A DNA stretch of 29,815 nt from Deltaproteobacteria bacterium (GTDB taxonomy: Bacteria; Myxococcota_A; UBA796; JAFGLY01). The notes below the pieces were generated by a model, which had not been told where the DNA came from, did no database searches, and worked only from the letters and a program-made list of their open reading frames with translations. Each line of letters opens with the position of its first letter. Position 1 is the first letter of the stretch. The position numbers and the translations under genes are program-made. Below, piece by piece: positions 12,966 to 24,733 of this stretch. The stretch spans positions 1 to 29,815 of the forward strand of contig JAFGLY010000169.1 in assembly GCA_016927815.1 (NCBI GenBank), given 5' to 3'.

Positions 12966-12990
12966 GCCCGCCGGCCGAGGCCGCCTGACC

Positions 12991-15900
12991 TTACGGGGTC
13001 CACGTGAGGGACAGCCCCACCGATCTCCCGTCGCGGGTCTCCTCGGTGACGTTGCCGGCCACGGTCTGGCGGGAGGGCCAGTCGAGCAGGTTGGAGACCT
13101 TGAGCCGGACCTGCCAGTGGGGGCCAAAGCCCTGGGTCGCGACCATGTCCACCCGGTGCACGGGCTCCTCGTAGGCGTCGGGGATCCCCGACTTGCCGAC
13201 CTCGACGATCCGCGGTCCGAAGGCGTTGTAGAGGAGTGAGACAGAGGTCCTGACGTCGGGGTTCTCGTAGCTCAACTGGGCGTTGACCACCCAGGGGGAC
13301 TGACCCTGCAGGGGGCGTTCCTCCGACGTCTGGTTGCCCTCCGTGTCGGAGAGGTCGACCTTCGACGAGATGAGCGAGACGTTGGAGCTGGCGTACACGT
13401 CCTCGAGCAGCGGGAGGAGGGCGTCCAGGCGCTGCCGGAACTCCAGCTCCGCACCCAGGTTGGTCGCGCTCGTCGCGTTGTCGAACGTGCCCAGGCTGCC
13501 GGACACCGCGCTCACGGCGACCACCGACTCGATCGGGTGGTCGAAGTACTTGAAGAAGGCCCCGACCGAGAGGCTCTCCCCCGCACGGGGGTACCATTCC
13601 CAGCGCAGGTCGAGGTTGTCGATGGTGGCTCGCTCGAGGTCCGGGTTTCCATAGAGGGAGCGACCGGTGCGGTAGTCGTAGTAGGCCACCTCGGTCAACT
13701 CACGGAACTCGGGTCGGGACAGGGTGCGCCCGTAGCCGGCCCTGAGGAGCATCCCGTCCGGATCCGCGGCGTTGCCCAGGCCGATGGTCACGGTGGCGGC
13801 TGGCAGTACGTCCCGAGACTCGAGGGTTGCCTCCACAGGTTCCTTGCTCGTGTCGAACAGTTCGAACGTCGTCACGCCCTGTACGGAATGCTCGTACCGC
13901 AGGCCGGCCAGCGTGCGGAGGCGCGAAGTCCAGGCCGCGTCGATCATGCCGTACGCTCCCCGGAGCGACTGGCTTGCCGTGTAGTCGTCCGAGTTGGCGG
14001 TGTTCTCTTCAATCTGCAGGTAGCCCGGATCCCCCTCCTCCTCGGCCCCGATGTTGGAGGGCACGATGACCTGGTCGATGGGAGCCGTGAGGTCGATGCC
14101 CTCGGTGCCCTTGAAGCCGTAGGAGAAGCGCCGGACGGTGGAGGCCCGATCGCGGCTCGCCCTGGCGCCTCCGACCTTGATGACGGTGTCGTGGCCGACT
14201 CGCGGGAGGTGCCAGGCGAGGTCCAGCCTCAGGTCACGGGTGGTGTCGTCGAGGGTCTGGTACTGGATGTCGTTCCACCCCCCACGCTGGGAGAGCACCA
14301 GGCCTTCCTCGGTGTCCAGGTAGGTCCACTCCCGTCGGTCGGGCTCGAGCCGCGTCGCGAACGCCAGGGCGTAGCGGGCGGCGGCCTCGACACGACCGAG
14401 GTCCACGTCCAGGGCGAGCTGCTCGAAGGCGAGTTGCTGCTCCACCCAGTCGATCCGCTCGTTGTAGGTGTCGCTGCTGCCCTCCGGGTCGTCCCAGGTC
14501 CAGCGGAGCGCGGTCCCCTGGGAGGCCCGATTGATGAGCGTCGTCGAGGAGAAGCGGACCACGTCCCTCCAGTCCAGGCCGAGGGAGAGGGCCCCGCCCA
14601 CGCGGACCCGGTTCGAGGTGTCCACGAACGCCGTGCGGCGGGCGACCTGGAGTCGGTCCAGGCCCGCTGCGTACACGGTCCGGACCCCCTCCTCGACGTT
14701 CCATGCGTTCGAGTAGACCAGAGCGCCCAGAGCCCCCAGTTCGGCCTCCCCGACCTTCCACCTCCGGCCGGCGCTCGCGGTCAGGCCGAGGTCGGGAGGC
14801 AGCGTACGCGCCTCGTGGGTCCAGCGATTGGGGATCATCTCCCCGTAGCGCTCGAGTTCCTCGGGCGAGTACCCGAGGTCCGAGAAGATCCCCTTGGACT
14901 TCAACGGCTGCTCGGCGCTGGCCTCGGCGACCTCTGCTGGGAGGGCCCGCCAGCCGGCCCCTACCCCCAGCCAGTCGGTGGGACCGGACGGCGCGACCCG
15001 TGCGTCGGAAAGGGTGGCCCCCCCCACCCACGTCCCCGACACACCGAGGCTCAGGACCGGCGTCTCCGGGATGCTCCGCGTGCGGATCTCCACCACCCCG
15101 CCTCCGAACTCACCCGGCCGGTCCGGAGAGAACGTCTTCTGGACGACGATGGCCTCGATGAGGGCGGTTGGGAAGAGGTCGAGGGGCACGACCCTCTTCT
15201 CCGGTTCCGGGCTCGGCAAGGCCGAGTCGTTGAGCAGGGTGGAGGAGTAGCGATCGCCCAGCCCGCGTACATAGACGTACCTGCCGCCGATCACGGTCAG
15301 GCCCGTGACCCGCTTCAGCGCAGCGGCGGCGTCGCTGTCGCCGGCCCGGGTCATCTGCTCGGCCCCCAGCACGTCGGATACCGCAGCCGCCTCTTTGCGC
15401 TCATCGAGGAGCGAGGCGGTACCGCCCGTGATCCGAGGCGCCGTGATCGTCAGGTCCGAGAGGACCAGCCCGATCTTCTCCAGGGAGAAGGAGAGGGAGC
15501 GCGCCTCGCCGGGAACCACCCGGACGGTCTGGGTGTGGGCCTCGTAGCCGGCGCGGATGGCGGTGACCTCCCATGTCCCTGCGGGCAGGGTGAGCGAACC
15601 GGTGCCGTCCGCAGCGGTCGTGGCGGCCGCCCCCGCGCCCCTGACGAACAGCCGTACGTCGGCGAGAGGGACTCCGGCGGACCGATCGGTGACCGTTCCG
15701 ACCACCGTTCCGGGCGGACCGGCCGGCACCACCGCCACGGCCTCCTCCACAGACGGCGCTTCCAGATGGACCTGAGGCTCCCCTGCACCCACCGTGACCA
15801 GCATCTCGGTGGTCCGGCCAGCGGCCACGGGCACCTCGGACACGGCTGCGACCGGAAGGCCTGGAGCTTCGACGTGCACCTCGACCCGGCCGGGCAGGAG

Positions 15901-16065
15901 GTCGATGCGGAAGACCCCCCACTCGTCGGTCCGGACCTCGGTCTCGCCCGCCCACACCCGGGCGTCCGGCACCGGCGTTCCGTCGACGTCGAAGACCACC
16001 CCCGAGAGGGATCCGGTCTGGGCCAGGGCGGCGCCCGCCAGGAGCAGGAGGGCGATCAAGGACAC
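12991..16065 (-). CDS. TonB-dependent outer-membrane transporter with N-terminal carboxypeptidase-regulatory-like (CarboxypepD_reg) domains (Oar-like)
   Basis: Proposed GTG at 16063-16065 (GGGGGAG 7 nt upstream) gives signal peptide MSLIALLLLAGAALA-QTG. Two roughly 80-aa CarboxypepD_reg-like beta-sandwich modules follow (GSLSGVVFDVDGTPVPDARV…; GTVVGTVTDRSAGVPLADVRLFV…). The Plug domain (AVSDVLGAEQMTRAGDSDAAAALKRVTGLTVIGGRYVYVRGLGDRYSSTLLN) is followed by a long beta-barrel. The 5' extension to 17079 overlaps the TPR gene and is spurious. Confidence 0.8.
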   Translation of the reverse strand: MSLIALLLLAGAALAQTGSLSGVVFDVDGTPVPDARVWAGETEVRTDEWGVFRIDLLPGRVEVHVEAPGLPVAAVSEVPVAAGRTTEMLVTVGAGEPQVHLEAPSVEEAVAVVPAGPPGTVVGTVTDRSAGVPLADVRLFVRGAGAAATTAADGTGSLTLPAGTWEVTAIRAGYEAHTQTVRVVPGEARSLSFSLEKIGLVLSDLTITAPRITGGTASLLDERKEAAAVSDVLGAEQMTRAGDSDAAAALKRVTGLTVIGGRYVYVRGLGDRYSSTLLNDSALPSPEPEKRVVPLDLFPTALIEAIVVQKTFSPDRPGEFGGGVVEIRTRSIPETPVLSLGVSGTWVGGATLSDARVAPSGPTDWLGVGAGWRALPAEVAEASAEQPLKSKGIFSDLGYSPEELERYGEMIPNRWTHEARTLPPDLGLTASAGRRWKVGEAELGALGALVYSNAWNVEEGVRTVYAAGLDRLQVARRTAFVDTSNRVRVGGALSLGLDWRDVVRFSSTTLINRASQGTALRWTWDDPEGSSDTYNERIDWVEQQLAFEQLALDVDLGRVEAAARYALAFATRLEPDRREWTYLDTEEGLVLSQRGGWNDIQYQTLDDTTRDLRLDLAWHLPRVGHDTVIKVGGARASRDRASTVRRFSYGFKGTEGIDLTAPIDQVIVPSNIGAEEEGDPGYLQIEENTANSDDYTASQSLRGAYGMIDAAWTSRLRTLAGLRYEHSVQGVTTFELFDTSKEPVEATLESRDVLPAATVTIGLGNAADPDGMLLRAGYGRTLSRPEFRELTEVAYYDYRTGRSLYGNPDLERATIDNLDLRWEWYPRAGESLSVGAFFKYFDHPIESVVAVSAVSGSLGTFDNATSATNLGAELEFRQRLDALLPLLEDVYASSNVSLISSKVDLSDTEGNQTSEERPLQGQSPWVVNAQLSYENPDVRTSVSLLYNAFGPRIVEVGKSGIPDAYEEPVHRVDMVATQGFGPHWQVRLKVSNLLDWPSRQTVAGNVTEETRDGRSVGLSLTWTP

Positions 16066-17198
16066 GCTCCCCCGGACGTGCAGGTCTCCATGGCCACCCG
16101 CAACTGGGTGGCCCTGGCGTAGGCCTCGGGCTCGCTGATGGTCGCCAGCCAGCGCTCGGACCGGTCGAACGCGCCCAGGTGGAACCAGGCGAAGGCCAGA
16201 CCGTAGGCGATGCCGTCGTCGTCGCCCAGATCCAGGCGGAGCAGTCGCTCTTCGAGCGCGACGGCTCGCTCCCACTCCTCGCCCTCCAGGAGCAGGCCCA
16301 GGCGCTGCCGGGCCTTGGCCACGGGATCGACCACCTGACCGTTCATCCGCTGGGCGGCATCCAGGTCGCCCGCTCGGCGGTAGGCCTCGGCGGCCTCGAG
16401 TGCGAGCGCGGGGTCGAGCGTGGCCGCGCGCTCGAGGAATCGTCCCGCGTTGCGCGGCTGCCCGTCGTCGATCGCTGCGCGGGCCGACTGCACCAGCAGG
16501 TCGCGGTCGTTTCCCTGGCGGAGCAGGGCGGCCTCGAGGATGACCATCGCTTCCCCGGTGTCCCCGCCACGTCGAAGCGCCTCGGAGATGGCGATGGCGT
16601 CCTTCGCATCGGAGTCCTGACGGGCCAGGAGCGCTTCGCCATGCTCGCGCGCCTCCCGGAGGAGGCCGAGACGGACGAGCAGGAAGACCTGCTGGCGTCT
16701 CAGGTCCGGCTGGTCGGGAAGCCGGTTCGCCCCTTGCTCCAAGGCGTTCCAGGCCTCGGCCGGCCGGCCGATCTCCTCGTACGCCTGGGCTCGCAGCAGC
16801 CACGTACCGGGCAGGCTCTCCCCCATCTGGCCGGTGCGGTCGAGGGCCTCGAGCGCCCGCACGGGGTCCCTTGCCGCGAGGAGTGCCCGCGCGAGGTGCA
16901 ACTCGAGCAACTCCCGCCCCTCGGTCGCCGTCTCGAGGGCACGCTGGAACGAGACCGATGCCGCGATCGCCTTCTTCTCGTGCAGCTCGACGAGACCGCG
17001 GAGCATCCAGAGCCTCTCGGGATCGGCTCTCTCGGCATCCAGGGGGATTTCCGCCAGTATCTCGGAAGCCCGAGCCCACTGGCCCTCGCGGACGAGCAGG
17101 CCCGCGAGCGCGACCGGGTCCTCTTCGGGCACGGCCTCACGGGGCCTGGCCTCCGCCACGCCGATGAGGATCAGCCACAAGGCCAGCCAATGGCGCAT
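16056..17198 (-). CDS. TPR-repeat protein with signal peptide (TtpD-like component of the TonB2-type system)
   Basis: ATG at 17196-17198, MRHWLALWLILIGVAEA signal, then TPR-like helical repeats (Ala/Leu/Arg/Glu-rich, W/Y..A..G motifs). The stop overlaps the TBDT start by 10 nt; the start lies 3 nt downstream of the tonB stop. Confidence 0.75.
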   Translation of the reverse strand: MRHWLALWLILIGVAEARPREAVPEEDPVALAGLLVREGQWARASEILAEIPLDAERADPERLWMLRGLVELHEKKAIAASVSFQRALETATEGRELLELHLARALLAARDPVRALEALDRTGQMGESLPGTWLLRAQAYEEIGRPAEAWNALEQGANRLPDQPDLRRQQVFLLVRLGLLREAREHGEALLARQDSDAKDAIAISEALRRGGDTGEAMVILEAALLRQGNDRDLLVQSARAAIDDGQPRNAGRFLERAATLDPALALEAAEAYRRAGDLDAAQRMNGQVVDPVAKARQRLGLLLEGEEWERAVALEERLLRLDLGDDDGIAYGLAFAWFHLGAFDRSERWLATISEPEAYARATQLRVAMETCTSGGACP

Positions 17199-17200
17199 CG

Positions 17201-17830
17201 TCACTCCAGCGCGAAGCGCAGCGTCTGCCGGACGCGGACGGCCACGGGGGCGCCCTCCTGGCGCCCGGGTTCGAACGTCCACTCCTCGACCGCCATGACC
17301 GCCGCTTCGTCGAAGGTGCCCGGGGGCTCGGCCTCCACCACGTGGATGTCCTGTGCCGATCCGTCCACGTCGACCACGAAGCTCAGGGTGACGAAGCCCG
17401 AGAGCCCGAGAGCCCGAGCCCTCGCGGGGAAGGACGGCGGCTCCTGCCGGGTCGGGCGGGGAGGCACCTCCACCGCATCCTCGTCGATCACGGACGCTCC
17501 GAGATCCTGGACGAGCGCCTCCGTCACCCCGCTGAGCGCCAGGTCGGCGGCGTCGCCGAAGCCGAAGTCCAGGCCCTCCAGGCCCGCCGCGAGCAGAGGC
17601 GCCGCAGAGGGCCCCTTGCGTGCGGCCTGGCGGGCGGCCCCGGTCCGCCGCGGGCGGGACGCCCTCTGGGCGGCAGGTCGAGCGGGCACGGCGATCTCCT
17701 GGACCACGCTCACGGGCTCCAGTGCACGCTTCTCCACCTGGGCGTTCATTCCGAGGCTCAGCGCACACACGCCCGCCGTCCCCAGAACCGCGATGCCCAT
17801 GGCAGCGAGATGGCGCAGCAGGTCAGCCAT
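17201..17830 (-). CDS. tonB: TonB-family energy transducer
   Basis: ATG at 17828-17830 overlaps the exbD end (8 nt). N-terminal TM anchor (LAAMGIAVLGTAGVCALSL), a Pro/Ala/Arg-rich spacer, and a C-terminal TonB_C fold (ARARALGLSGFVTLSFVVDVDGSAQDIHVVEAEPPGTFDEAAVMAVEEWTFEP). Confidence 0.75.
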   Translation of the reverse strand: MADLLRHLAAMGIAVLGTAGVCALSLGMNAQVEKRALEPVSVVQEIAVPARPAAQRASRPRRTGAARQAARKGPSAAPLLAAGLEGLDFGFGDAADLALSGVTEALVQDLGASVIDEDAVEVPPRPTRQEPPSFPARARALGLSGFVTLSFVVDVDGSAQDIHVVEAEPPGTFDEAAVMAVEEWTFEPGRQEGAPVAVRVRQTLRFALE

Positions 17831-18230
17831 CCTCGGCGTCCGTGACCACACCGATTTCCTTCGCGCCTCCCAGCCGGCACTGATCGACGACCTCGACGAG
17901 CTTTTCGGCCGTGACCCGCCGGTCGCTGACCACGAGCACCGTCTTGTCGCCGCTCCGGGAGAGCGCATCGCGGACCCGGCTCTGGACCATCCAGGGCCGG
18001 ACGGGCGTCTCGTCGATGTAGACCGCGGCGGACCGGTCGATGAACACCCGGAGCGCCCGGGTGTTTGCCGGCGAGGCGCTCTGGGCGCCCGGGCGCTCGA
18101 TCTGCAGTTCGGCATCCTTGGCAAAGGTCGTGGTGACCATGAAGAAGATGAGCAGCACGAGGATGCAGTCGATGAGGGGCACCACGTCGATGTGTGGGTC
18201 GCTGTGGGGGGCGTGCTGTCGCCGGCTCAT
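17823..18230 (-). CDS. exbD: ExbD/TolR biopolymer transport protein
   Basis: 135 aa, MSRRQHA…IDVVPLIDCILVLLIFFMVTTTF (single TM). Periplasmic domain carries the ExbD signature (LRVFIDRSAAVYIDETPV). ATGA overlap with the upstream exbB stop. Coordinates are taken from ORF-frame arithmetic. Confidence 0.8.
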   Translation of the reverse strand: MSRRQHAPHSDPHIDVVPLIDCILVLLIFFMVTTTFAKDAELQIERPGAQSASPANTRALRVFIDRSAAVYIDETPVRPWMVQSRVRDALSRSGDKTVLVVSDRRVTAEKLVEVVDQCRLGGAKEIGVVTDAEDG

Positions 18231-18835
18231 GCGGGCACCCGCTTCAGGCTGCCCGAGTAGATGGCCTTCAACTCCTCGAGCTCCAGGCTGAGCTTCTGCT
18301 CGAAATGGTGGAGGACGCCGCCCATCAGCAGACCCGGCACGGCGATCGCGAGGCCCATCTGGGTTGCGTACAGGGCCTCGACGATGCCTCCGGCGATGCC
18401 CTCCGAGGCGGTGGAGGTCATGGACTGTCCCAACGAGCCGAAGGTCTCGATGAGCCCGGTCACCGTGCCGAGCAGGCCGAGCAAAGGCGACATGGCCACC
18501 AGGCATTTCACGAGCATCGTCCCGCGCTGGAGGCTCTCCTCGAGGTCGGCGAAGGCCTCGTCCAGGAAGGGACGGGGAACCGGGCCGCCGAATCGCCGCC
18601 AGAGGGCTGCGCCCCGGCTTGCCGCCTCTCCGATGACGCCCTGGGCACGCCCCTCCGGCCTGACCCGCCATGCAGCCACCAGGGTCCTCAGGTCGCGCCG
18701 ATCCCCCCGCCGGAGCACGAGCAAGCGCTCCCCGAGGGCGAACCAGAGCACGAAGGCGGTGGTGAAGAGGGCGGGCATGACGACGCCTCCCCCCTGCCAG
18801 AGGTCGTAGACCTGGAGCAGGAGGGAATCACTCAT
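18227..18835 (-). CDS. exbB: MotA/TolQ/ExbB proton-channel protein
   Basis: 202 aa, three TM segments with the MotA_ExbB motif (MSPLLGLLGTVTGLIETFGSL…GIAGGIVEALYATQMGLAIAVPG). The start ATGAGTGA overlaps the stop of the upstream long ExbB-like gene. Confidence 0.8.
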   Translation of the reverse strand: MSDSLLLQVYDLWQGGGVVMPALFTTAFVLWFALGERLLVLRRGDRRDLRTLVAAWRVRPEGRAQGVIGEAASRGAALWRRFGGPVPRPFLDEAFADLEESLQRGTMLVKCLVAMSPLLGLLGTVTGLIETFGSLGQSMTSTASEGIAGGIVEALYATQMGLAIAVPGLLMGGVLHHFEQKLSLELEELKAIYSGSLKRVPA

Positions 18836-20174
18836 TCGCCACCAGGAGCCGTTCGACGGGGTCCTCGTACGCGCATTCCTGTTCGGACCGCTGGAGGTCG
18901 AATGCGTTGACCAGGGCCAACGCCCCGCGTTCGACGGTGTTCTTCACGGAACTGCCGACGCTGGCCAGGAGGTTCCCGACGAGCAGGGTGGGGATGGCCA
19001 CCGCAAGACCCATGGCCGTGCAGACCAACGCCTCTGCGATGCCGGCCGACATCAGCTTCGGATTTCCGGTTCCGTGCTCGGTGATGACGTTGAAGGTCGC
19101 GATCATGCCGGTGACGGTACCGAGCAGCCCCAGCAGGGGAGCGCCGGCCGTGATGACCACCAGGGCCGAGGCGAAGCGGTCGATAAGCGGCGTCTCGCGG
19201 AGGATGGCCTCGTCCACCACGCGATCCAGCTCCTCTCGGGAACGGTGTGCGTTCTCGAAGACCGCCTTCAGCACCCGAGGGATCGATCCGCCCCGCTTCC
19301 GGAGAAGGCTCAGGGCCTCCTCGAGCCGGTCGGCCCGAACCCGTTCGGTGACGGCGTTCACGAGCGGCATGCCGCCGCGCCTCGCGAGCGCGAGCGTGCC
19401 GGCCCGCGAGAGCGCGAGAAGGGCGCTCAAGCAGCCGAGCCCGAACAGCACGTACCCCATGGCGCCCGCATCCTCGAGCACCGAGCCGAGCCCCGTCTCC
19501 TTCTCCTTTTCGATGGTCAGGCGGTCCGGCTCGAAGAGGTGGACCTCCAGATCCGCGGGTCGCTCCCCGGCGGCGAGCGCCGCGGCCGTCGCCTGGCCGA
19601 ACCTCCTTCGGAGCTGGAGCTTTCCCTCGGCCACCGGGGCCAGCGCACCCGATCCCTCATCGGATACGCCCCAGGCGGCGACCCGGCCCCAACGGAAGAT
19701 CCGTCCCTGGACCTGCTGGCCCTCGGGAAGGAAGAAGGCCCCCTCCTCCGAGCGGATCGCGCCCGTCTCGGCCAGGCGCTCGGCCGAGGCGCGGAAGATG
19801 AGCGGGATGGCCGTGGTGGGGTCGTCGAGCGGGTCGAGGTCGAGCGTGTCTTCCGCCTGCTGGAGGGTGGACGAGAGCACGGAGTTGGCGTCGTCCATCT
19901 CCCCGAGTTCGCGATCCACGATGTCGCGCTCGTCCTCGGCGAGGTCGGCCTCGTGGGCCGTGGAGACGAGCTTCGCCTGGACGGTTTCCAGACGAGCGTT
20001 CGCCTGGGCCACGCGCTGGGCGGCCTCCCCGCTCATCTCCTGGAGCCGCTCCTCGAGCTCCCGCTTCTCCGCGCTCAGGTAGGCGAACTCCTTCTGATAG
20101 GCGGCGTCCAGGCTGGACGCCATGGCCCCTGGGTCGGTGGCCAGGGCTGCGCCGAGGAGACAAAACAGGATCAT
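18828..20174 (-). CDS. Long MotA/TolQ/ExbB-family protein with about 230-aa N-terminal periplasmic coiled-coil extension (TtpC-like)
   Basis: ATG at 20172-20174, signal peptide MILFCLLGAALA. The N-terminal half is a Glu/Arg/Ala-rich coiled coil. The C-terminal half holds three TMs and the MotA_ExbB channel motif (APLLGLLGTVTGMIATFNVI…GIAEALVCTAMGLAVAIPT). This architecture equals TtpC of Vibrio TonB2 systems. Confidence 0.75.
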   Translation of the reverse strand: MILFCLLGAALATDPGAMASSLDAAYQKEFAYLSAEKRELEERLQEMSGEAAQRVAQANARLETVQAKLVSTAHEADLAEDERDIVDRELGEMDDANSVLSSTLQQAEDTLDLDPLDDPTTAIPLIFRASAERLAETGAIRSEEGAFFLPEGQQVQGRIFRWGRVAAWGVSDEGSGALAPVAEGKLQLRRRFGQATAAALAAGERPADLEVHLFEPDRLTIEKEKETGLGSVLEDAGAMGYVLFGLGCLSALLALSRAGTLALARRGGMPLVNAVTERVRADRLEEALSLLRKRGGSIPRVLKAVFENAHRSREELDRVVDEAILRETPLIDRFASALVVITAGAPLLGLLGTVTGMIATFNVITEHGTGNPKLMSAGIAEALVCTAMGLAVAIPTLLVGNLLASVGSSVKNTVERGALALVNAFDLQRSEQECAYEDPVERLLVANE

Positions 20175-20926
20175 GACCCAGCTCCCGGGTCGGGGAGCGT
20201 GAAGTCCCCGCTGCGCACGCCGTGCGCGACCTTGTTGAAGAAGCTCTCGACCGCCCTCTGGTCTTCACGCAAAGTCAGCGCCTTCCACGTCCAACCCTCG
20301 GCCGAGCGCACCGCCGTCCCGTACAGGCCGCCGTCCGTCCGGAAATACAGCGCCACCATGCCGAGTCGAGCCACGTCGGCCAGCACCTCCTGCCCGTCCA
20401 GCGGCACGATCTGTCGATCCAGGCCGTTCTCGCGGGTGAGGCGGAGCTCGTCCTCGGTGAACGCCCAGAGACGTGCCGTCGCGCCCTCCGGGGAGATCAG
20501 GCCCGAGGCGAGCTGGTCCTGGATCCTGTCCAGCTCCGCCTGCCGCTCGGCCAGGTGGAAGGGCAGGCTGAAGTCCACGGCGGTCCGGATCCGCCGGATG
20601 GACTCCAGGAGGGCCGGGGTGAGCGTCTCACCGCGCGTGCTCGAGCGGGCCAGCTCCGCCCGACTGGCGTCCACCTCGCCCCGGACCTGGGAGAGCCTGA
20701 GCTCCTCACGCCGGAGCTGGACCTCCACCTCCATCACCTGCGCCTCGACGGCCTTGATCCTGGCCCTCGTGTCCTCCTTGGAGGCTGCGATCTCGCTGGA
20801 CAGCGTCTCCACCTCGCGGCGGAGGCGCGCCAGCTCGGAAGCGCGGTGACCCGCGGCCTCCTCTGCGAACGCGCCGGCTGGCAGGCAAAGCAGGAGGACC
20901 AGGACGAATCCTCTCCGGGGGCTCAT
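20171..20926 (-). CDS. DUF3450-like periplasmic coiled-coil protein (TtpB-like, TonB-system associated)
   Basis: ATG at 20924-20926, signal peptide MSPRRGFVLVLLLCLPAGAFA. A coiled-coil N-terminal half is followed by a conserved C-terminal block (LPFHLAERQAELDRIQDQL…VALYFRTDGG.YG). The 4-nt overlap with the downstream TtpC-like start and the position match DUF3450/TtpB genes of TonB2-type clusters. Confidence 0.6.
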   Translation of the reverse strand: MSPRRGFVLVLLLCLPAGAFAEEAAGHRASELARLRREVETLSSEIAASKEDTRARIKAVEAQVMEVEVQLRREELRLSQVRGEVDASRAELARSSTRGETLTPALLESIRRIRTAVDFSLPFHLAERQAELDRIQDQLASGLISPEGATARLWAFTEDELRLTRENGLDRQIVPLDGQEVLADVARLGMVALYFRTDGGLYGTAVRSAEGWTWKALTLREDQRAVESFFNKVAHGVRSGDFTLPDPGAGS

Positions 20927-20929
20927 GGA

Positions 20930-22267
20930 TCAGTCTTCGTCGTGGTGGGTCCAGCCGGCCGTCCAGTCGTTGGTCGCGTCAAACGCGCCCTTGTAGCTGA
21001 CCTGCTGGAAGAAGCTGTCCGAGGGGGCCTCGCCGCCGGTGGCGAGCACGGATCCGGACTTGAGCCGGAAGTCGGGCGCCGAGGGGTTCAGCGGGTCGAC
21101 CAGGCCCAGGTCGGGGGCGATCGAGTTGCCCTCGCCGCCCGTGAAGATGGGCTCCTCGTCCGTATCTTCGAAGGCACTGGCGCAGGCCAGCACCGAGTGG
21201 GTGATCCAGGCGTCCCCGCTCGTGAACCCGGAGAGGGTCTCGCTGTCGCGGAGGGACAGGCACGCCTTGGAGAAGTCCATCACCGCCAGGTTCTGGAGCT
21301 TCGGCTGCGTGCCCTTGCGGATGAGCATGCCGAAGTTGTCCTCCTTGAGCGCCTCGTCGCCCACGAGGGTGACGTTGACGATCGTCGGGGTGGTGAGGGG
21401 CTCGGCCGCGTAGTCGTCCGGGTTGTTGTCGCCCTCGAAGCCGTTGTTGCCCCCGCCGAGGATCTGCTGGACCACGGCGAACTGGATCTTGCCCTGGTAC
21501 CCGAGGTCCCAGTCGATCCCGTCGTCGCCGGGGGAGGTGCAGACCAGGTGCGTGGCGTTGACCGCCCCGCCCCAGAACTCGATGCAGTCGTCGAGGGTGT
21601 TGTGGACCTGGATGTAGTCGAGGGTGGTGCCGCTGCCCACGCCCTGCAGCCCGAGGCCGTTGACCTCGTTGGCCTTGCTGATCTCCGTGCCGCCGAACTC
21701 GATGACGACGTACTTCAAGGAGCCGCTGTCGTCGGCGTTGTCACTGCCGCCGTAGGTCCCGGTACCGCCCTCGCCCTCCGCCTCGCAGGGGGTGCTGCCA
21801 TCGGTGCAGGCGTTGATCTTCCCCAAACCGTTGATCACGAGGCCGCCCCAGTCTCCGCGCGCTCGCGAACCGACGGGCTGGTCGGAGGTGAAGACGATGG
21901 GCGCCGAGACGGTTCCCTCGGCGACGATGTTCGCGTGCCTGCTGATGATGAGCAGGCCGTTGGTGGCGGACTCACCGTAGATCCGGGTGCCCGGCTGGAT
22001 CCTCAGGGTCGTCTCGTTGACGTCGTCCCCGATGATCACGGCGCTGCGCAGCAGCCACGCCTTGTCGGAGGTGAGGACCATGTCCTCGGTGTAGGTGCCG
22101 GAGAGCACGCAGGCGCCACCCTCCTCGACGCAGTCCGCTACATTGCCGGTGTCGTCCAGGGTGTTGGTGTCGTCGGGAGTGTTGCTGTCGTGGGTGTCGC
22201 CCGTCTCCTCCCCGCCGTTGCACGCGACGAGGGGAACAAGGGCCAGAATTGCGATCAGATTGCGCAT
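20930..22267 (-). CDS. Lipoprotein, Asp/Asn/Gly/Thr-rich, predicted right-handed beta-helix-like fold; first gene of the TonB2-type operon
   Basis: ATG at 22265-22267 with GGAG about 6 nt upstream. Lipoprotein signal MRNLIAILALVPLVAC (lipobox LVAC). The mature protein is highly acidic and G/N/T-rich, with repeated short beta-strand motifs (GLLIISRHANIV, GGLVINGLGKI, KYVVIEFGG, GIDWDLGYQGKIQFAVV, PTIVNVTLVG) suggesting a parallel beta-helix. The stop lies 3 nt before the DUF3450 start. Confidence 0.7.
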   Translation of the reverse strand: MRNLIAILALVPLVACNGGEETGDTHDSNTPDDTNTLDDTGNVADCVEEGGACVLSGTYTEDMVLTSDKAWLLRSAVIIGDDVNETTLRIQPGTRIYGESATNGLLIISRHANIVAEGTVSAPIVFTSDQPVGSRARGDWGGLVINGLGKINACTDGSTPCEAEGEGGTGTYGGSDNADDSGSLKYVVIEFGGTEISKANEVNGLGLQGVGSGTTLDYIQVHNTLDDCIEFWGGAVNATHLVCTSPGDDGIDWDLGYQGKIQFAVVQQILGGGNNGFEGDNNPDDYAAEPLTTPTIVNVTLVGDEALKEDNFGMLIRKGTQPKLQNLAVMDFSKACLSLRDSETLSGFTSGDAWITHSVLACASAFEDTDEEPIFTGGEGNSIAPDLGLVDPLNPSAPDFRLKSGSVLATGGEAPSDSFFQQVSYKGAFDATNDWTAGWTHHDED

Positions 22268-22472
22268 GTTCGCTCCTGGTTGGAGGGGAAGGGATGGCTG
22301 TGGCCACCCGGTGTCGAGCGCCCAGGAGTCTACGGTCCCTGTTTGGCGGGACAGTGACGCCACGGCGGCGGGAGGATGGAGATTCGGGGGCATCCCAGGA
22401 CTTGCCGATTACCCCGATAGTGCCACTCACTTGGCCCGATCCTGTCTCATCCGGGGGATACCGTGGGCCCCT

Positions 22473-23177
22473 ATGGACGAAGCCATCCTCATCGTGGACG
22501 ACGAACCCGATCTGGTCGCCGCGCTGGACTATTCCCTGCGCCGCGAGGGGTTCGTCACGCGGACCGCAGCCTCCGGGCACGCGGCTTTGGAGGCCGTCGC
22601 GCTGGAGCCGCGTCCCGTCCTGGTGCTGCTCGACTGGATGCTGCCGGACCTCCCTGGGACCGAGGTGTTCCGGCGTCTCCGCAACGACCCCTCCACCGCG
22701 TCGATCCCCGTGGTGATGGTGACGGCCCGGGGGGAGGAGGTGGATCGGATCGTGGGTCTGGAGCTCGGGGCCGAAGACTACATCGTCAAGCCCTTCAGCA
22801 TCCGTGAGTTGGTGCTCCGGGTCCGCGCGGTGCTCAGACGGTCCAGGGTCGCCGGGCCCGACACGCCGTCTCCTCCGGACCGGATGGTCTCGGGCGCCCT
22901 CGTGGTGCACCGCGAGGCGCACCGGGCCTGGGTCGACGGCTCCGAGATCGACCTGACCGCCCAGGAGTTCCGCCTGCTCCTCGTGTTCCTGGACCACGCC
23001 GGACGAGCCCTGACACGCGAGCAGATCCTCGCGGACGCTTGGGAGGACGGAGTCAGCATCACCGAGCGTGCGGTGGATACCCACATCAAGCGACTGCGCC
23101 GCAAGCTCGGCACGTCGGGCGCGCGGATCGAGGCGATCCGCGGCGTCGGCTACCGTTTCTCGGCCAACGTCGAGTAG
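22473..23177 (+). CDS. OmpR/PhoB-family two-component response regulator (no cognate kinase nearby)
   Basis: ATG at 22473 (MDEAILIVDDEPDLV…). Receiver domain with phospho-acceptor context VLLDWMLPD and conserved T/K (VVMVTARG…YIVKPF). C-terminal winged-helix Trans_reg_C (LTAQEFRLLLVFLDHAGRALTREQIL…VDTHIKRLRRKL…VGYRF). Confidence 0.85.
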   Translation: MDEAILIVDDEPDLVAALDYSLRREGFVTRTAASGHAALEAVALEPRPVLVLLDWMLPDLPGTEVFRRLRNDPSTASIPVVMVTARGEEVDRIVGLELGAEDYIVKPFSIRELVLRVRAVLRRSRVAGPDTPSPPDRMVSGALVVHREAHRAWVDGSEIDLTAQEFRLLLVFLDHAGRALTREQILADAWEDGVSITERAVDTHIKRLRRKLGTSGARIEAIRGVGYRFSANVE

Positions 23178-23317
23178 GCCCGCCCCCCAGGCCGCCTCGC
23201 GGCGGGGTCCGCAAGACCTCCGGGGCCGCAGGGGTACGTGATCCCCGCGATTGCACGGAAGGACCGTCCTGGGGTACGTACGGTGTCCCGGCCATACACT
23301 CTCGAAGGCACCGCGGC

Positions 23318-24733
23318 ATGATCGTCACCTGCGAGCGATGCAACGCTCGGTACAAGCTCGACGACTCCCGGATCAAGGGCCGGGGTGCCCGGATCACCTG
23401 TCCGAGGTGCCACCACGTCTTCACGATCCTCGTCGATCCACCGGCGGAGAGGGCCGCTGAGCCCGCGCCCGATCCTGGGGTCGAGCCGGGGCCGCCCGAG
23501 GGCGGGAGCGGGCAGCACCTGCGTCCGTTGCAGGCCGCCCGGCTCGAGGTGCCCCAGGGGTCCGCCGATCGGCTCGACTTTCGGAAGGTGGGCATCGCCA
23601 CCTGGAAGGTCAAGGTCAAGAGCGGTCTCGTCTACGACTTCTCCGACATCCGGACGCTCCGGAAGTACATCCAGGATCACCGCGTCACCGAGGACGACGT
23701 CATCTCCTGGGACGGCCTCCGGTGGACGCGGATCGGCGACATCCCGAACCTGGACGCGTTCTTCCTGCAGGTCTACGAGGAGCGCGTGCCGGTCCCCGGG
23801 CCCGCTCTGGCGCAGGAGGAGGCCGAGGACGCCCCCACCATCGTCGTGGGCATGGGGACGCTCGGCTACAACCGCCCCACGGGAGTCTTCGAGCGGCCCG
23901 ACCTCGCATCCGACGCCTCGCTGGCGGAGGCGTCCGAACCGTCCTCCCCCGGCGACGCGCACATCCCCCGCTTCGTGGATCCCTTCGAGGCTCTCAAGAA
24001 GTCGCGTCTGAAAGCCAAGGGGCGAAGCAGTCCCGTGCAGGACCCCGGGACGGTACGGGGCGGCTGGCGCGTGCGCACGGCCTTCGTGGCCGGCCTGGCC
24101 GTGGTCACCCTCCTCGCGGTCGCCTGGTTCATCGGCTCCCGGCCCGCACCCGAAGCGCCCGCACGACCCGTGGCCACGACCCCCGCCCTTCCGGATGCCA
24201 GCGACTTTCGAGCGCAGATGCGGGATCGGATCGAGCAGCAACTGGAGCAGCGGGACCCGCTCCCACTCGAGCCCGAGCCCGAGGAAGCCCTCCGCCCGGT
24301 CGTACCCCCCGATGCGGCCCTCCGGCGGGGGACCTCCCCGGCCCTGACCTTGTCCCCGCCGAGCATCGCTCCTCCCTCGCCGGCCTCCGTGGCTGATCTC
24401 GCGGCCCGAGGTGACGCGTTGCGGGAGGCGGGCGACTGGGCCGCCGCGACGGACACCTACGCCCGTGCCGCGGCCCTGGATCCGGGCAATGCCGGGTACC
24501 GCTTCCGGTACGGAGAGGGGCTGGTCCACTCGGGTCGGCCGGCCGAGGCGCGGCAGGTGCTCGAGGCCGCCTCCCTGGCGGGCGTGGCGGCCGCGCACAA
24601 GCTCCTCGGCGACCTGGCCCGAGACCGGCAGGACGTCCAGGACGCCGTGACCCACTACCAGGAGTACCTGAAGAGCGAGCCTCCGGATCGGGCCGCGATC
24701 GAGCAGGTGCTTCGGGATCTTTCGGACGACTGA
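23318..24733 (+). CDS. MJ0042-type zinc-ribbon / DUF4339-like / single-TM / TPR multidomain protein
   Basis: ATG at 23318: MIVTCERCNARYKLDDSRIKGRGARITCPRCHHVF is the MJ0042-family zinc-finger signature. Next comes a DUF4339/GYF-like module (WKVKVKSGLVYDFSDIRTLRKYIQDHRVTEDDVISWDGLRWTRIGDIP), a Pro/Ala-rich linker, one TM helix (AFVAGLAVVTLLAVAWFIG), and a C-terminal TPR-like region (ALREAGDWAAATDTYARAAALDPGNAGYRFRYGEGL…). Confidence 0.7.
   Translation: MIVTCERCNARYKLDDSRIKGRGARITCPRCHHVFTILVDPPAERAAEPAPDPGVEPGPPEGGSGQHLRPLQAARLEVPQGSADRLDFRKVGIATWKVKVKSGLVYDFSDIRTLRKYIQDHRVTEDDVISWDGLRWTRIGDIPNLDAFFLQVYEERVPVPGPALAQEEAEDAPTIVVGMGTLGYNRPTGVFERPDLASDASLAEASEPSSPGDAHIPRFVDPFEALKKSRLKAKGRSSPVQDPGTVRGGWRVRTAFVAGLAVVTLLAVAWFIGSRPAPEAPARPVATTPALPDASDFRAQMRDRIEQQLEQRDPLPLEPEPEEALRPVVPPDAALRRGTSPALTLSPPSIAPPSPASVADLAARGDALREAGDWAAATDTYARAAALDPGNAGYRFRYGEGLVHSGRPAEARQVLEAASLAGVAAAHKLLGDLARDRQDVQDAVTHYQEYLKSEPPDRAAIEQVLRDLSDD

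What the first reader, a model, noticed from the sequence alone, without database searches (positions are those of the whole stretch)
12991..22267. Complete eight-gene TonB2/Ttp-type energy-transduction operon with an added beta-helix lipoprotein and an Oar-like TBDT
On the minus strand, eight genes run head-to-tail with 3-10-nt gaps or overlaps. The order is lipoprotein, DUF3450 (TtpB-like), long ExbB with periplasmic coiled coil (TtpC-like), ExbB, ExbD, TonB, TPR protein (TtpD-like), and a 1024-aa TonB-dependent transporter with two CarboxypepD_reg modules. The core gene order reproduces the Vibrio TonB2 system (ttpB-ttpC-exbB2-exbD2-tonB2-ttpD). Here the core is bracketed by a putative substrate-capturing lipoprotein and a dedicated transporter. 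CarboxypepD_reg-type TBDTs include Myxococcus Oar, which exports a protease rather than importing nutrients, so this unit could be either a dedicated uptake system or a TonB-powered outer-membrane secretion system.
Basis: partly seen in the sequence, partly recalled or inferred. Interest (0 to 1): 0.55.

Follow-up and report, generated by a model that had tools for sequence, protein, structure and literature searches.

The report
Lipoprotein-capped outer-membrane importer with own TonB motor
This is a real eight-gene operon that joins a widespread surface-lipoprotein and outer-membrane-transporter pair, linked in other bacteria to phosphate starvation, with its own Vibrio TonB2/TonB3-type energy motor, so it is most likely a nutrient importer (probably for phosphorus) and not an Oar-like secretion system.

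Summary
Eight minus-strand genes (22267-12991) run head to tail with 2-3-nt gaps or 4-10-nt overlaps, all in a high-GC3 coding frame. HMMs confirm DUF3450/TtpB, a long ExbB-like TtpC, ExbB, ExbD, TonB, a TPR protein (TtpD-like) and a 1024-aa TBDT.

The core matches the Vibrio ttpB-ttpC-exbB-exbD-tonB-ttpD order. The two 'added' genes, however, are the conserved unit. The lipoprotein (Pfam PF28492 Beta_helix_4) lies next to an orthologous TBDT in 57 of the 72 fetched loci that hold both, across many phyla. In another 15, Ttp genes separate them as here. Ttp-type Ton genes lie between the pair (15 loci), beside it (11) or are absent (46).

Neighbours elsewhere are phoB/phoR, pstSCAB, phoU and ppx. 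Pho-box-like sites precede the lipoprotein gene in Gammaproteobacteria. By fold and context the pair matches Caulobacter ElpS/CC0171, Bacteroides BT4056/BT4055 and Flavobacterium Fjoh_0546/0545. The first and last are phosphate-starvation induced; substrate unknown.

The CarboxypepD_reg extension is absent from alpha/gamma orthologues and occurs in 28% of all TBDTs, so 'Oar-like' is not supported.

In this window itself, the phosphate link rests only on a divergent PhoB-like regulator. Direct alignment to ElpS was not possible.

Verdict: new variant of a known kind; interest about 0.45.

The parts
22473..23177 (+). Divergently transcribed OmpR-family response regulator, PhoB-like. No partner histidine kinase was found in the window.
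   Evidence: Pfam Response_reg 90.7 bits and Trans_reg_C 81.2 bits. The best NCBIfam hit is PhoB TIGR02154 at 225.7 bits, below its 296.2-bit cut-off. It is 53% and 48% identical to regulators at the same position in L002 and L006. Histidine-kinase queries gave no match in the window.
22268..22472 (.). 205-bp divergent intergenic region, the presumed promoter and regulatory region of the operon.
   Evidence: Sequence read. No sigma-70 consensus. No E. coli-type Pho box or TGTCAY-N5-TGTCAY repeat. The best Fur-box match is 11/19, equal to the window background.
20930..22267 (-). Beta-helix lipoprotein of 445 aa (PF28492 Beta_helix_4). It has lipobox LVAC with Cys16, an acidic low-complexity tether (aa 17-45), then a right-handed beta-helix carrying an invariant acidic ladder and a C-terminal DWTxGWT motif. 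It is the putative surface 'lid' or capture protein of the TBDT.
   Evidence: Pfam; alignments. Invariant residues are E166, E201, D226, D227, E230, D248, D249, D252, E278, D280, N152, N203, Q220, N281, R317, W140 and W439. Structure (pLDDT 82). Fold matches to pectate lyases and tailspikes are only generic. Adjacency to an orthologous TBDT across loci is shown.
20171..20926 (-). TtpB-like DUF3450 protein of 251 aa, with a signal peptide and a coiled coil; periplasmic.
   Evidence: PF11932 88.7 bits against cut-off 32.6. Vibrio TtpB2 is a 255-aa DUF3450 protein and the first gene of the tonB2 operon (PMC6957404). No solved homologue.
18828..20174 (-). TtpC-like long ExbB paralogue of 448 aa. 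It has an N-terminal extension of about 235 aa (predicted periplasmic), three predicted membrane-spanning segments, and a MotA_ExbB domain at aa 300-407 (18954-19277).
   Evidence: MotA_ExbB 93.6 bits; sub-threshold DUF3450 hit of 22.2 bits at aa 140-176. Hydrophobic segments at 236-256, 334-365 and 382-410. PDB matches to ExbB and TolQ cover only the C-terminal part. DUF3450 N-terminal appendages on ExbB-like subunits are noted in PMC12505986.
18227..18835 (-). ExbB, 202 aa, three hydrophobic segments.
   Evidence: MotA_ExbB 78.3 bits.
17823..18230 (-). ExbD, 135 aa.
   Evidence: PF02472 87.8 bits.
17201..17830 (-). TonB, 209 aa, with one N-terminal hydrophobic segment and a C-terminal TonB_C domain.
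   Evidence: PF03544 69.1 bits; TIGR01352 56 bits against cut-off 27.1.
16056..17198 (-). TtpD-like TPR protein of 380 aa with a signal peptide.
   Evidence: TPR_19 55.2 bits, ANAPC3 43.1, TPR_14 39.9. Vibrio TtpD2 is a 425-aa TPR protein and the last gene of the tonB2 operon.
12991..16065 (-). TonB-dependent transporter of 1024 aa. In order: signal peptide, CarboxypepD_reg (15793-16011), CarbopepD_reg_2 (15475-15702), TonB box DLTITAP (15436-15456), Plug (15124-15396) and beta-barrel (about 13000-14580). It is orthologous to the TBDTs that accompany the lipoprotein in other genomes.
   Evidence: TIGR01782 228 bits, below cut-off 310. Orthologues found in 72 of 84 loci; bit scores co-vary with the lipoprotein (Spearman 0.67). 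N-terminal domains are variable. The C-terminal TWTP is conserved in the closest relatives.

Best explanation
The unit is a self-contained TonB-dependent import system for the outer membrane. It is built from two known modules.

Module 1 is an ElpS/BT4056-type beta-helix lipoprotein plus its cognate TBDT. I infer that the lipoprotein is displayed on the cell surface on a flexible acidic tether. I also infer that it docks on the extracellular face of the TBDT as a capture protein or 'lid', and that it uses an invariant ladder of Asp/Glu residues, probably metal-loaded, to bind the substrate.

Module 2 is a six-protein Ttp-type Ton complex (TtpB, TtpC, ExbB, ExbD, TonB, TtpD). It converts proton-motive force into a pull on the TBDT's TonB box (DLTITAP), which opens the plug.

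Because all eight genes are translationally coupled in one operon, transporter and motor are made together.

The substrate is most likely a phosphorus source scavenged under phosphate starvation. The divergent PhoB-like response regulator would be the switch. This rests on the genomic company the pair keeps elsewhere and on published phosphate-starvation induction of the apparent homologues ElpS and Fjoh_0545/0546.

Shown here: gene content, operon structure, family assignments, the conserved lipoprotein-TBDT pairing, recurrent linkage to Ttp genes and to Pho genes in other genomes, and Pho-box enrichment in Gammaproteobacteria.

Inferred: surface location, lid function, phosphate control in this organism, and the chemical identity of the substrate.
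For: - Operon anatomy and HMM assignments.
- Conserved pairing. A TBDT orthologue was found with the lipoprotein in 72 of 84 loci. It is directly adjacent in 57 of them. In 15 it is separated only by Ttp genes. Bit scores co-vary (Spearman 0.67).
- Ttp genes lie within 10 kb in 26 of 72 loci, in three different arrangements and in several phyla. This pattern indicates selection for linkage and not shared ancestry of one arrangement.
- Phosphate linkage by neighbourhood. A PhoB-like regulator occurs in 34 loci and a PhoR-like kinase in 29. In L018 both pass the NCBIfam equivalog cut-offs (330.8 against 296.2; 419.7 against 334.2). PstS-family proteins occur in 12 loci, along with PstC/A, PstB, PhoU and Ppx.
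- Pho-box-like sites number 15 observed against 1.56 expected upstream of the lipoprotein gene in 36 gammaproteobacterial loci.
- The window's own divergent regulator has PhoB as its best family hit.
- Literature on ElpS/CC0171. ElpS is a surface lipoprotein induced by phosphate starvation, encoded next to a TBDT and T2SS genes (PMC2996285). The same lipoprotein-TBDT-GspC/D/E layout appears in L054, L072 and L077.
- Literature on Fjoh_0545/0546. They sit in the PhoBR operon and are strongly induced by Pi depletion. That TBDT carries Plug, CarbopepD_reg_2 and OMP_b-brl_3, as here (PMC8115612).
- Literature on BT4055/BT4056. [quoted passage not shown]
- All six Ttp-type proteins are required for TonB2-dependent transport in Vibrio vulnificus (PMC6957404).
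- A canonical TonB box and plug are present in the TBDT.
Against: - In the window itself there is no recognisable Pho box and no histidine kinase.
- The regulator scores below the PhoB equivalog cut-off. It could be a different OmpR-family regulator.
- Homology of this lipoprotein to ElpS, BT4056 and Fjoh_0546 was not shown by direct alignment. Reference sequences could not be retrieved. The link is by fold, Pfam family context and synteny.
- The Pho-box statistic counts related species as independent, and it uses an E. coli consensus.
- No phosphatase, nuclease or inner-membrane P-transporter gene is in the operon.
- The substrate of no family member is known. The B. thetaiotaomicron pair had no clear fitness phenotype.
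- The beta-helix fold and the TIGR01782-like barrel are also typical of glycan systems.
Confidence: 0.6

Rival explanations
1. Glycan capture and import. The beta-helix lipoprotein is a surface polysaccharide lyase, hydrolase or binding protein. The TBDT, related to the Xanthomonas/Caulobacter carbohydrate transporters, imports the oligosaccharides. Any phosphate link is indirect, for example phosphorylated or acidic polysaccharides such as teichoic acids or root cell-wall material, as Lidbury et al. suggest.
For: - The fold resembles pectate lyases, PL6 alginate lyases, polygalacturonases and tailspikes, but only weakly (TM 0.36 or less).
- The best NCBIfam hit for the TBDT is TIGR01782 TonB-Xanth-Caul.
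- TonB2-type genes of Teredinibacter are needed for growth on cellulose (PMC10734418).
- Lidbury et al. note homology of the FI and FII lipoproteins to polygalacturonases.
Against: - No CAZyme, sugar kinase, isomerase or sugar transporter family emerged among conserved neighbours. The recurrent neighbours are phoBR, pstSCAB, phoU and ppx.
- TIGR01782 is below its cut-off (228 against 310).
- There is no significant sequence match to any solved lyase.
- The fold matches are generic to beta-helices.
Confidence: 0.15
2. Iron or siderophore (or haem) uptake, as for the Vibrio TonB2 system. The operon would be Fur/iron controlled and the TBDT would import an iron chelate, with the lipoprotein as a receptor aid.
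For: - The gene order of the six core genes is that of the iron-regulated tonB2 operon, whose six proteins are all needed for siderophore uptake.
- The acidic ladder on the lipoprotein could bind metal ions.
Against: - There is no Fur-box-like site. The best match is 11/19, the same as the background.
- No siderophore biosynthesis, reductase or ABC iron-uptake genes occur in the window or among conserved neighbours.
- The apparent homologues Fjoh_0545/0546 were among loci tightly repressed under Fe limitation and induced by Pi depletion.
- The Vibrio system that does carry a receptor gene, TonB3, is not iron regulated and does not transport iron.
Confidence: 0.08
3. TonB-powered export. The TBDT, driven by the dedicated Ttp motor, moves a protein outward. 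One candidate cargo is the lipoprotein itself; its route to the surface is unknown in Proteobacteria.
For: - Oar shows that a TBDT with a CarboxypepD_reg extension and a TonB box can act in secretion (PMC6434023).
- ElpS reaches the cell surface independently of the T2SS by an unknown route.
- Price et al. note that the machinery for exporting such lipoproteins outside Bacteroidota is unexplained.
- The lipoprotein has an acidic segment just after the lipidated Cys.
Against: - The CarboxypepD_reg extension is not diagnostic. It occurs in 28% of TBDTs and is absent from alpha and gamma orthologues of this same TBDT.
- No Oar-type relationship was demonstrated.
- No secreted-protease gene lies nearby.
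- Deleting cc0171 did not abolish ElpS production, although surface exposure was not reported.
- AlphaFold-Multimer places the homologous lipoprotein on the outer face as a lid.
Confidence: 0.07

Closest known systems
Caulobacter crescentus ElpS (CC0170) with TBDT CC0171/CCNA_00170; Bacteroides thetaiotaomicron BT4056/BT4055; Flavobacterium johnsoniae Fjoh_0546/Fjoh_0545
   Same: - A lipoprotein of about 45-50 kDa with a pectin-lyase-type beta-helix fold is encoded beside a TBDT.
- The pair is very widely distributed across phyla.
- It is linked to phoBR and Pi starvation.
- The Flavobacterium TBDT has the same Pfam signature (Plug, CarbopepD_reg_2, OMP_b-brl_3).
- Alphaproteobacterial family members sit upstream of T2SS genes exactly as elpS does.

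   Different: - Here six Ttp-type Ton genes are inserted between the lipoprotein and the TBDT inside one operon.
- The TBDT carries two CarboxypepD_reg modules.
- No kinase, pst or T2SS cluster is adjacent.
- Homology to the named reference proteins was inferred from family, fold and synteny, not from direct alignment.
Vibrio TonB2 system (ttpB2-ttpC2-exbB2-exbD2-tonB2-ttpD2)
   Same: - The six gene types appear in the same order.
- TtpB is a DUF3450 protein of about 255 aa.
- TtpC is a long ExbB-like protein.
- TtpD is a TPR protein.

   Different: - The Vibrio operon has no receptor or lipoprotein gene, has a putative Fur box, is induced by iron depletion, and serves several siderophore receptors.
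- Here the motor is embedded in a single transporter's operon with no Fur-like site.
- Sequence relatedness to the Vibrio proteins was not measured.
Vibrio/Teredinibacter TonB3 system
   Same: - It has a Ttp-type six-gene set with an outer-membrane receptor gene at the head of the same operon.
- It is not iron regulated and its function is unknown.
- The Alteromonas-type layout found here (beta-helix protein, TBDT, TtpB, TtpC, ExbB, ExbD, TonB, TtpD) has that form.
   Different: - Whether the TonB3 receptor is an orthologue of this TBDT, and whether a PF28492 gene precedes it, could not be tested.
- TonB3 of V. vulnificus is reported to be activated in human serum or in glycerol minimal medium with low casamino acids. 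Alice & Crosa 2012 (title in the reference list) place it under Lrp and CRP, not PhoB.
Myxococcus xanthus Oar (TBDT required for PopC secretion)
   Same: - An N-terminal CarboxypepD_reg extension, a plug with a TonB box and a 22-strand-type barrel.
- A dedicated Ton gene set.
   Different: - The extension is common (28% of TBDTs) and variable within this orthologous group.
- This TBDT is paired with a conserved lipoprotein and with phosphate genes, not with a secreted protease.
- Orthology to Oar was not shown.
SusC/SusD-type and other lipoprotein-capped TBDTs (BtuB2/BtuG2, XusA/XusB)
   Same: The concept of a surface lipoprotein capping a TBDT and helping to bind the substrate.
   Different: - The lipoprotein fold is a beta-helix, not a SusD, BtuG or XusB fold.
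- The TBDT gave no SusC/RagA (TIGR04056) hit.

Membership tests
Vibrio-type TonB2/Ttp energy-transduction system | First gene encodes a DUF3450 protein of about 255 aa (TtpB) | tested here: met
   PF11932 88.7 bits against cut-off 32.6; 251 aa; it lies directly upstream of the long ExbB-like gene.
Vibrio-type TonB2/Ttp energy-transduction system | TtpC: an extra, long ExbB-like protein with a large N-terminal extension, encoded in addition to ExbB | tested here: met
   448 aa; MotA_ExbB 93.6 bits confined to aa 300-407; three C-terminal hydrophobic segments; a separate 202-aa ExbB follows. Identity to Vibrio TtpC was not measured.
Vibrio-type TonB2/Ttp energy-transduction system | ExbB, ExbD and TonB genes follow, then a TPR protein (TtpD) as the last Ton gene | tested here: met
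   ExbD 87.8 bits, TonB_C 69.1 bits, TPR_19 55.2 bits, in that order. The order matches PMC6957404.
Vibrio-type TonB2/Ttp energy-transduction system | Fur/iron regulation and a role in siderophore uptake | tested here: inconclusive
   The best Fur-box match in the 205-bp upstream region is 11/19, equal to the window background. The consensus may not apply to this lineage. No iron-uptake genes are nearby.
ElpS / BT4056-type TBDT-associated lipoprotein ('lid') with cognate TBDT | Lipoprotein signal peptide with lipobox | tested here: met
   MRNLIAILALVPLVAC, Cys16. The Cys is invariant in alignment A1.
ElpS / BT4056-type TBDT-associated lipoprotein ('lid') with cognate TBDT | Pectin-lyase-type right-handed beta-helix fold with no other known domain | tested here: met
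   PF28492 Beta_helix_4. The model has pLDDT 82 and is all-beta with regular rungs. The best PDB matches are pectate lyases and tailspikes, and they are weak.
ElpS / BT4056-type TBDT-associated lipoprotein ('lid') with cognate TBDT | Encoded with a TBDT on the same strand, conserved across distant taxa | tested here: met
   A TBDT orthologue is present in 72 of 84 loci. It is adjacent in 57 and separated only by Ton genes in 15. Here the two genes lie in the same operon.
ElpS / BT4056-type TBDT-associated lipoprotein ('lid') with cognate TBDT | Significant sequence similarity to CC_0170, BT_4056 or Fjoh_0546 themselves | not testable with these tools
   The reference sequences are not in any reachable collection. 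Homologue searches seeded from Oceanicaulis and Flavobacteriales members returned no named Caulobacter, B. thetaiotaomicron or F. johnsoniae protein in the top 120. Synteny matches both references: T2SS downstream in L054, L072 and L077; a PhoB-like regulator, then TBDT, then lipoprotein in L079.
Pho regulon member | PhoB-dependent control (Pho box or induction by Pi starvation) | tested here: inconclusive
   In the window there is only a divergent PhoB-like regulator (225.7 bits, below the 296.2 cut-off) and no Pho box. Homologous loci have bona fide PhoB/PhoR, pstSCAB, phoU and ppx neighbours and enriched Pho-box-like sites. Expression could not be tested.
Oar subclass TBDT / TonB-dependent protein secretion | CarboxypepD_reg N-terminal extension before the plug | tested here: met
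   Two modules (aa 19-91 and 122-197). The feature is not specific: it occurs in 28% of TBDTs and is absent in alpha and gamma orthologues.
Oar subclass TBDT / TonB-dependent protein secretion | Orthology of plug and barrel to Oar, and a cognate secreted substrate | not tested
   No Oar sequence was available for a tree. The barrel's best curated match is the importer subfamily TIGR01782. No secreted protease gene is in the window.
SusC/RagA TBDT (TIGR04056) | Match to the SusC/RagA model and an adjacent SusD-family gene | tested here: not met
   The NCBIfam scan lists no TIGR04056 hit at E<=0.01. The partner lipoprotein is a beta-helix, not SusD.
TonB-Xanth-Caul TBDT subfamily (TIGR01782) | Score above the curated cut-off of 310 bits | tested here: not met
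   228.1 bits in two stretches. It is related to the subfamily but outside it.

The most novel reading that the evidence does not exclude
The ElpS-type lipoprotein and its TBDT form an energy-driven outer-membrane uptake machine for phosphate itself or for metal-phosphate complexes. The invariant Asp/Glu ladder of the beta-helix would hold Ca2+ or another metal to capture phosphate at the cell surface. Ttp-type Ton complexes, including the enigmatic, non-iron Vibrio TonB3 type, would be its dedicated motors. A variant of this reading is that the same TBDT and motor also deliver the lipoprotein to the cell surface.
Probability: 0.12. Interest if true: 0.8.

Novelty: new variant of a known kind. 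Interest (0 to 1): 0.45.

Why it matters
Three open questions meet in this operon.
- What ElpS-type lipoproteins and their TBDTs transport. This has been unknown since 2010, although the pair occurs in hundreds of genera and is among the most strongly phosphate-starvation-induced surface proteins in Flavobacterium.
- What the accessory TtpB, TtpC and TtpD proteins do.
- What the non-iron 'TonB3'-type systems are for.

The repeated, rearranged linkage of a Ttp motor to this one transporter pair across phyla gives a concrete, testable pairing of motor, transporter and capture protein. It also points to phosphorus scavenging and away from iron.

If confirmed, it would add a TonB-dependent route to the bacterial phosphate-starvation response in oligotrophic waters and soils.

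For annotation purposes, the lesson is that a CarboxypepD_reg extension should not be read as 'Oar-like secretion'.

Tried and rejected
- **Pho box in the window's 205-bp upstream region.** Neither the E. coli consensus (CTGTCAT-N4-CTGTCAT) nor a relaxed TGTCAY-N5-TGTCAY repeat is present. Among window-type loci only L009 and L014 have strong sites. Phosphate control of this particular operon is therefore not shown.
- **Fur box.** The best match is 11/19, the same as elsewhere in the window.
- **Sigma-70 promoters and intrinsic terminators.** None is informative.
- **Direct link to ElpS, BT4056 or Fjoh_0546.** Every listed hit carries PF28492, but none is a named Caulobacter, B. thetaiotaomicron or F. 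johnsoniae protein. The afdb50 fold library was unavailable.
- **PDB sequence searches.** Searches with the TBDT and the lipoprotein profile found nothing; TtpB gave only a marginal coiled-coil match (Homer 3, E 0.0099). TtpC matches ExbB and TolQ only in its C-terminal part.
- **BLASTP of TtpB against the TtpC N-terminal extension.** Not significant (E 0.27). Their relatedness rests on sub-threshold DUF3450 HMM hits (22 bits here, 30 bits in L025).
- **The 785-aa ORF 10631-12988 (+).** I first took it to be the converging gene. It is a wrong-frame artefact of high GC. The real gene is a UvrD-type helicase at 10698-12965, unrelated to the operon.
- **Vibrio TonB3 comparison.** I could not test whether Vibrio TonB3 clusters contain this TBDT or lipoprotein.

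Full report
**Source and observation**

The window is the complete 29,815-bp contig of a metagenome-assembled 'Deltaproteobacteria bacterium'. The lipoprotein carries locus tag JXB39_13980. The contig is about 71% G+C.

On the minus strand between 22267 and 12991 there are eight genes:
- lipoprotein, 22267-20930
- DUF3450 protein, 20926-20171
- long ExbB-like protein, 20174-18828
- ExbB, 18835-18227
- ExbD, 18230-17823
- TonB, 17830-17201
- TPR protein, 17198-16056
- TonB-dependent transporter (TBDT), 16065-12991

The junctions are a 3-nt gap, overlaps of 4, 8, 4 and 8 nt, a 2-nt gap and a 10-nt overlap. In a genome this GC-rich, many long spurious ORFs exist. I therefore checked codon-position GC. 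Third-position GC is 0.85-1.0 in exactly these frames over the whole stretch.

These are DUF3450 at 88.7 bits, MotA_ExbB at 93.6 and 78.3, ExbD at 87.8, TonB_C at 69.1 and TPR_19 at 55.2. The TBDT has CarboxypepD_reg at 81.1 bits in two stretches, CarbopepD_reg_2 at 40.2, Plug at 36.7, the TBDT barrel at 86.1 and OMP_b-brl_3 at 54. No promoter or minus-strand terminator consensus interrupts the cluster.

**Boundaries**

Downstream, a UvrD-type helicase (10698-12965, +) converges on the TBDT stop. The 785-aa ORF that appears to end at 12988 is a wrong-frame artefact.

Upstream, a 205-bp intergenic region (22268-22472) separates the operon from a divergently transcribed OmpR-family response regulator (22473-23177, +). 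The functional unit is therefore the eight genes plus, probably, this regulator.

**The Ton core**

The order DUF3450, long ExbB-like, ExbB, ExbD, TonB, TPR is the order of the Vibrio tonB2 operon (ttpB2-ttpC2-exbB2-exbD2-tonB2-ttpD2). All six of its products are required for siderophore uptake. TtpB2 is a 255-aa DUF3450 protein and TtpD2 is a 425-aa TPR protein (PMC6957404).

The long ExbB-like protein has a 235-aa N-terminal extension, then three hydrophobic segments and a MotA_ExbB domain at aa 300-407. Its extension gives a sub-threshold DUF3450 hit of 22 bits here and 30 bits in an Alteromonas orthologue. A direct BLASTP against TtpB is not significant. DUF3450 appendages on ExbB-like subunits have been noted by others (PMC12505986).

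**The two flanking genes are the conserved unit**

The lipoprotein has no hit in the local Pfam copy. The protein database places it, and every listed homologue, in PF28492 Beta_helix_4. An AlphaFold model built on 16 homologues (pLDDT 82, pTM 0.83) is a right-handed beta-helix. It resembles solved pectate lyases, PL6 lyases and tailspikes only generically (TM 0.36 or less, no E below 1e-3). No PDB sequence matches the family profile.

The family is very large. One search returned 7,211 proteins at E<=1e-10. Members come from Alteromonas, Pseudoalteromonas, Shewanella, Idiomarina, Rheinheimera, Colwellia, Kordiimonas, Oceanicaulis, Gemmatimonadota, Acidobacteria, Ignavibacteria, Flavobacteriales, Bdellovibrionota, Myxococcota, Planctomycetota and Poribacteria.

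I mapped the eight window proteins onto 84 fetched loci with tblastn. A TBDT orthologous to the window's was found in 72 loci. The remaining 12 are mostly cut by contig ends.
- In 46 loci the lipoprotein and TBDT are simply adjacent, with no Ton genes within 10 kb.
- In 11 loci the adjacent pair is flanked by Ttp-type Ton genes. Examples are L028 and L080. Alteromonas L025 reads [three beta-helix modules in one ORF]-TBDT-TtpB-TtpC-ExbB-ExbD-TonB-TtpD, confirmed by Pfam.
- In 15 loci the Ton genes lie between the two, as in the window. These are Myxococcota and 'Deltaproteobacteria' MAGs, Bacteriovoracaceae, Pseudobdellovibrionaceae and Planctomycetota.

Lipoprotein and TBDT bit scores co-vary across loci (Spearman 0.67). 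The picture is a conserved lipoprotein-TBDT pair to which a Ttp motor has repeatedly been linked, in different arrangements.

**The TBDT is not specifically Oar-like**

Its best curated match is the importer subfamily TIGR01782 (TonB-Xanth-Caul), at 228 bits against a cut-off of 310. It has no SusC/RagA hit and no solved relative by sequence.

It has a canonical TonB box (DLTITAP, aa 204-210) ahead of the plug.

The CarboxypepD_reg extension that prompted the Oar comparison varies within this one orthologous group. There are two modules in window-type loci, one in Gemmatimonadota, Acidobacteria, Bacteroidota and Ignavibacteria, and none in Alpha- and Gammaproteobacteria. The 898-aa Alteromonas orthologue has only Plug and barrel.

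The Oar paper itself reports that 28% of 34,893 TBDTs have this architecture (PMC6434023). The extension therefore says nothing about direction of transport.

**What the pair does elsewhere**

Clustering all ORFs of the 84 loci gave the recurrent extra neighbours. These are an OmpR-type regulator (34 loci), a histidine kinase (29 loci) and a PstS-family binding protein (12 loci). Smaller groups proved to be PstC/A, PstB, PhoU, exopolyphosphatase Ppx, a porin and, in Alphaproteobacteria, GspC/GspD/GspE.

In L018 the regulator and kinase pass the NCBIfam equivalog cut-offs for PhoB (330.8 against 296.2) and PhoR (419.7 against 334.2).

Upstream of the lipoprotein gene in 36 gammaproteobacterial loci, I found 15 Pho-box-like sites against 1.56 expected from the rest of the same loci. 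One example is CTGTCATAAAACAGTCAT in L048. The species are related, so the nominal P value is overstated.

**Literature match**

In Caulobacter crescentus, ElpS (CC0170) is a lipoprotein of about 50 kDa produced under phosphate starvation. It is displayed on the surface and then released. It is encoded directly upstream of the TBDT CC0171 and the T2SS genes, and the authors report homologues in Shewanella, Bacteroides, Xanthomonas and Hyphomonas (PMC2996285). My Oceanicaulis, Hyphococcus and Rhodospirillaceae loci show the same lipoprotein-TBDT-GspC/D/E layout.

Price, Deutschbauer and Arkin (bioRxiv 10.1101/2023.03.17.533168) treat BT4055/BT4056 of B. thetaiotaomicron as a TBDT with a putative lipoprotein 'lid' of pectin-lyase fold. 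They find the pair adjacent in 621 genera and state that BT4056 is homologous to ElpS and 40% identical to Fjoh_0546.

Lidbury et al. (PMC8115612) found Fjoh_0545 and Fjoh_0546 in the PhoBR operon of Flavobacterium johnsoniae. Fjoh_0545 is a TBDT with Plug, CarbopepD_reg_2 and OMP_b-brl_3. Fjoh_0546 is lipoprotein 'FII' (IPR011050). Both are strongly induced by Pi depletion and abundant in the exoproteome. My Flavobacteriales locus L079 has the same order: PhoB-like regulator, TBDT, lipoprotein.

No paper I could find identifies the substrate.

**Limits of the phosphate inference for this window**

- The window's regulator has PhoB as its best family match, but below cut-off (225.7 bits).
- There is no kinase in the window.
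- No Pho box is recognisable with either an E. coli-type or a relaxed pattern.
- No Fur box is present either.
- I could not align the window lipoprotein directly to ElpS, BT4056 or Fjoh_0546.

The link is by Pfam family, fold, partner TBDT signature and three kinds of matching synteny. I consider it likely but not proven.

**Mechanism proposed**

The lipoprotein has lipobox Cys16, a 30-residue acidic tether and a beta-helix. The helix has an invariant ladder of acidic residues on successive rungs (E166, E201, D226/D227/E230, D248/D249/D252, E278/D280). This suggests a metal-dependent binding or catalytic groove.

I propose that it sits on the extracellular face of the TBDT and captures a scarce, probably phosphorus-containing and anionic substrate. 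The TBDT imports it when TonB pulls on the TonB box. [quoted passage not shown] The divergent PhoB-like regulator switches the operon on.

The general part, a dedicated TonB-dependent import system with a partner lipoprotein, I hold at about 0.85. The phosphorus-specific part for this organism I hold at about 0.6.

Rivals are glycan import (0.15), iron import as in TonB2 (0.08) and Oar-like export, possibly of the lipoprotein itself (0.07).

**Novelty and interest**

Both modules are known and both are mechanistically obscure. I found no published description of their fusion into one operon, or of their recurrent linkage across phyla. This makes the window a new variant of a known kind and not a new system.

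The nearest named analogue of the combined layout is the Vibrio and Teredinibacter TonB3 cluster. It begins with a receptor gene, is not iron regulated and has no known function. Whether it is the same system could not be tested.

The finding is useful because it pairs a specific transporter, a specific capture protein and a specific motor, and it suggests phosphate limitation as the condition to test. It is not very surprising to a specialist. Interest is 0.45.

Noticed in passing
L025:7142-11212 (+); L072:8159-11302 (+): In Alteromonas a single 1356-aa ORF contains three tandem Beta_helix_4 modules. In Oceanicaulis a lipoprotein contains two. Other Gammaproteobacteria have two or three separate tandem copies before the TBDT. 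The capture protein is thus often multiplied or fused.
   Followed up: partly
window 25630-27624 (-): A T2SSE-type secretion ATPase with an MshEN domain lies 3.4 kb upstream of the operon. In Caulobacter and other Alphaproteobacteria the ElpS-TBDT pair sits next to a T2SS. Here only this lone ATPase gene was identified, so the proximity may be coincidental.
   Followed up: no
window 10631-12988 (+) versus 10698-12965 (+): The long 785-aa ORF that abuts the TBDT stop is a Pro/Arg/Gly-rich wrong-frame artefact of the high GC content. The real converging gene is a UvrD/PcrA-type helicase in another frame.
   Followed up: yes
window 12991-13005 (-); L001, L002, L011, L045: The TBDT ends in TWTP, not in the usual C-terminal aromatic residue. 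The ending TW[TA]P is conserved in the closest relatives, while more distant orthologues mostly end in F, Y or L.
   Followed up: partly
window 18828-20174 (-), aa 140-176; L025:14976-16349: The N-terminal extension of the TtpC-like protein gives sub-threshold DUF3450 hits (22 and 30 bits). TtpC may be a TtpB-like domain fused to an ExbB. Pairwise BLASTP within the window is not significant.
   Followed up: partly
L013:14472-15281: One window-type locus (a Myxococcales MAG) has two tandem ExbD genes in the Ttp module.
   Followed up: no
L009 upstream of 9986; L014 upstream of 9863: Strong TGTCAC-N5-TGTCAC direct repeats (for example TGTCACAGCGCTGTCAC, in several copies) lie upstream of the lipoprotein gene in two window-type loci. 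They resemble Pho boxes. The window itself has none.
   Followed up: partly
window 1044-4663 (-), 4548-5639 (+), 5674-7209 (-), 7918-9465 (-), 9274-10701 (+), 23039-24733 (+), 29200-29724 (+): Other genes on the contig show no evident link to the operon. They are two PmbA/TldD-like proteins, a radical SAM protein, an SPFH/Band-7 protein with a GYF_2 domain, a class-III aminotransferase, a GlmU-like nucleotidyl/acetyl-transferase, a zinc-ribbon plus TPR protein and a bifunctional-nuclease-domain protein.
   Followed up: partly
L025:5020-6935: In Alteromonas, a PstS-family binding protein and a 2OG-Fe(II) oxygenase lie immediately upstream of the beta-helix gene, downstream of phoB/phoR-like genes. 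The oxygenase is unexplained.
   Followed up: no
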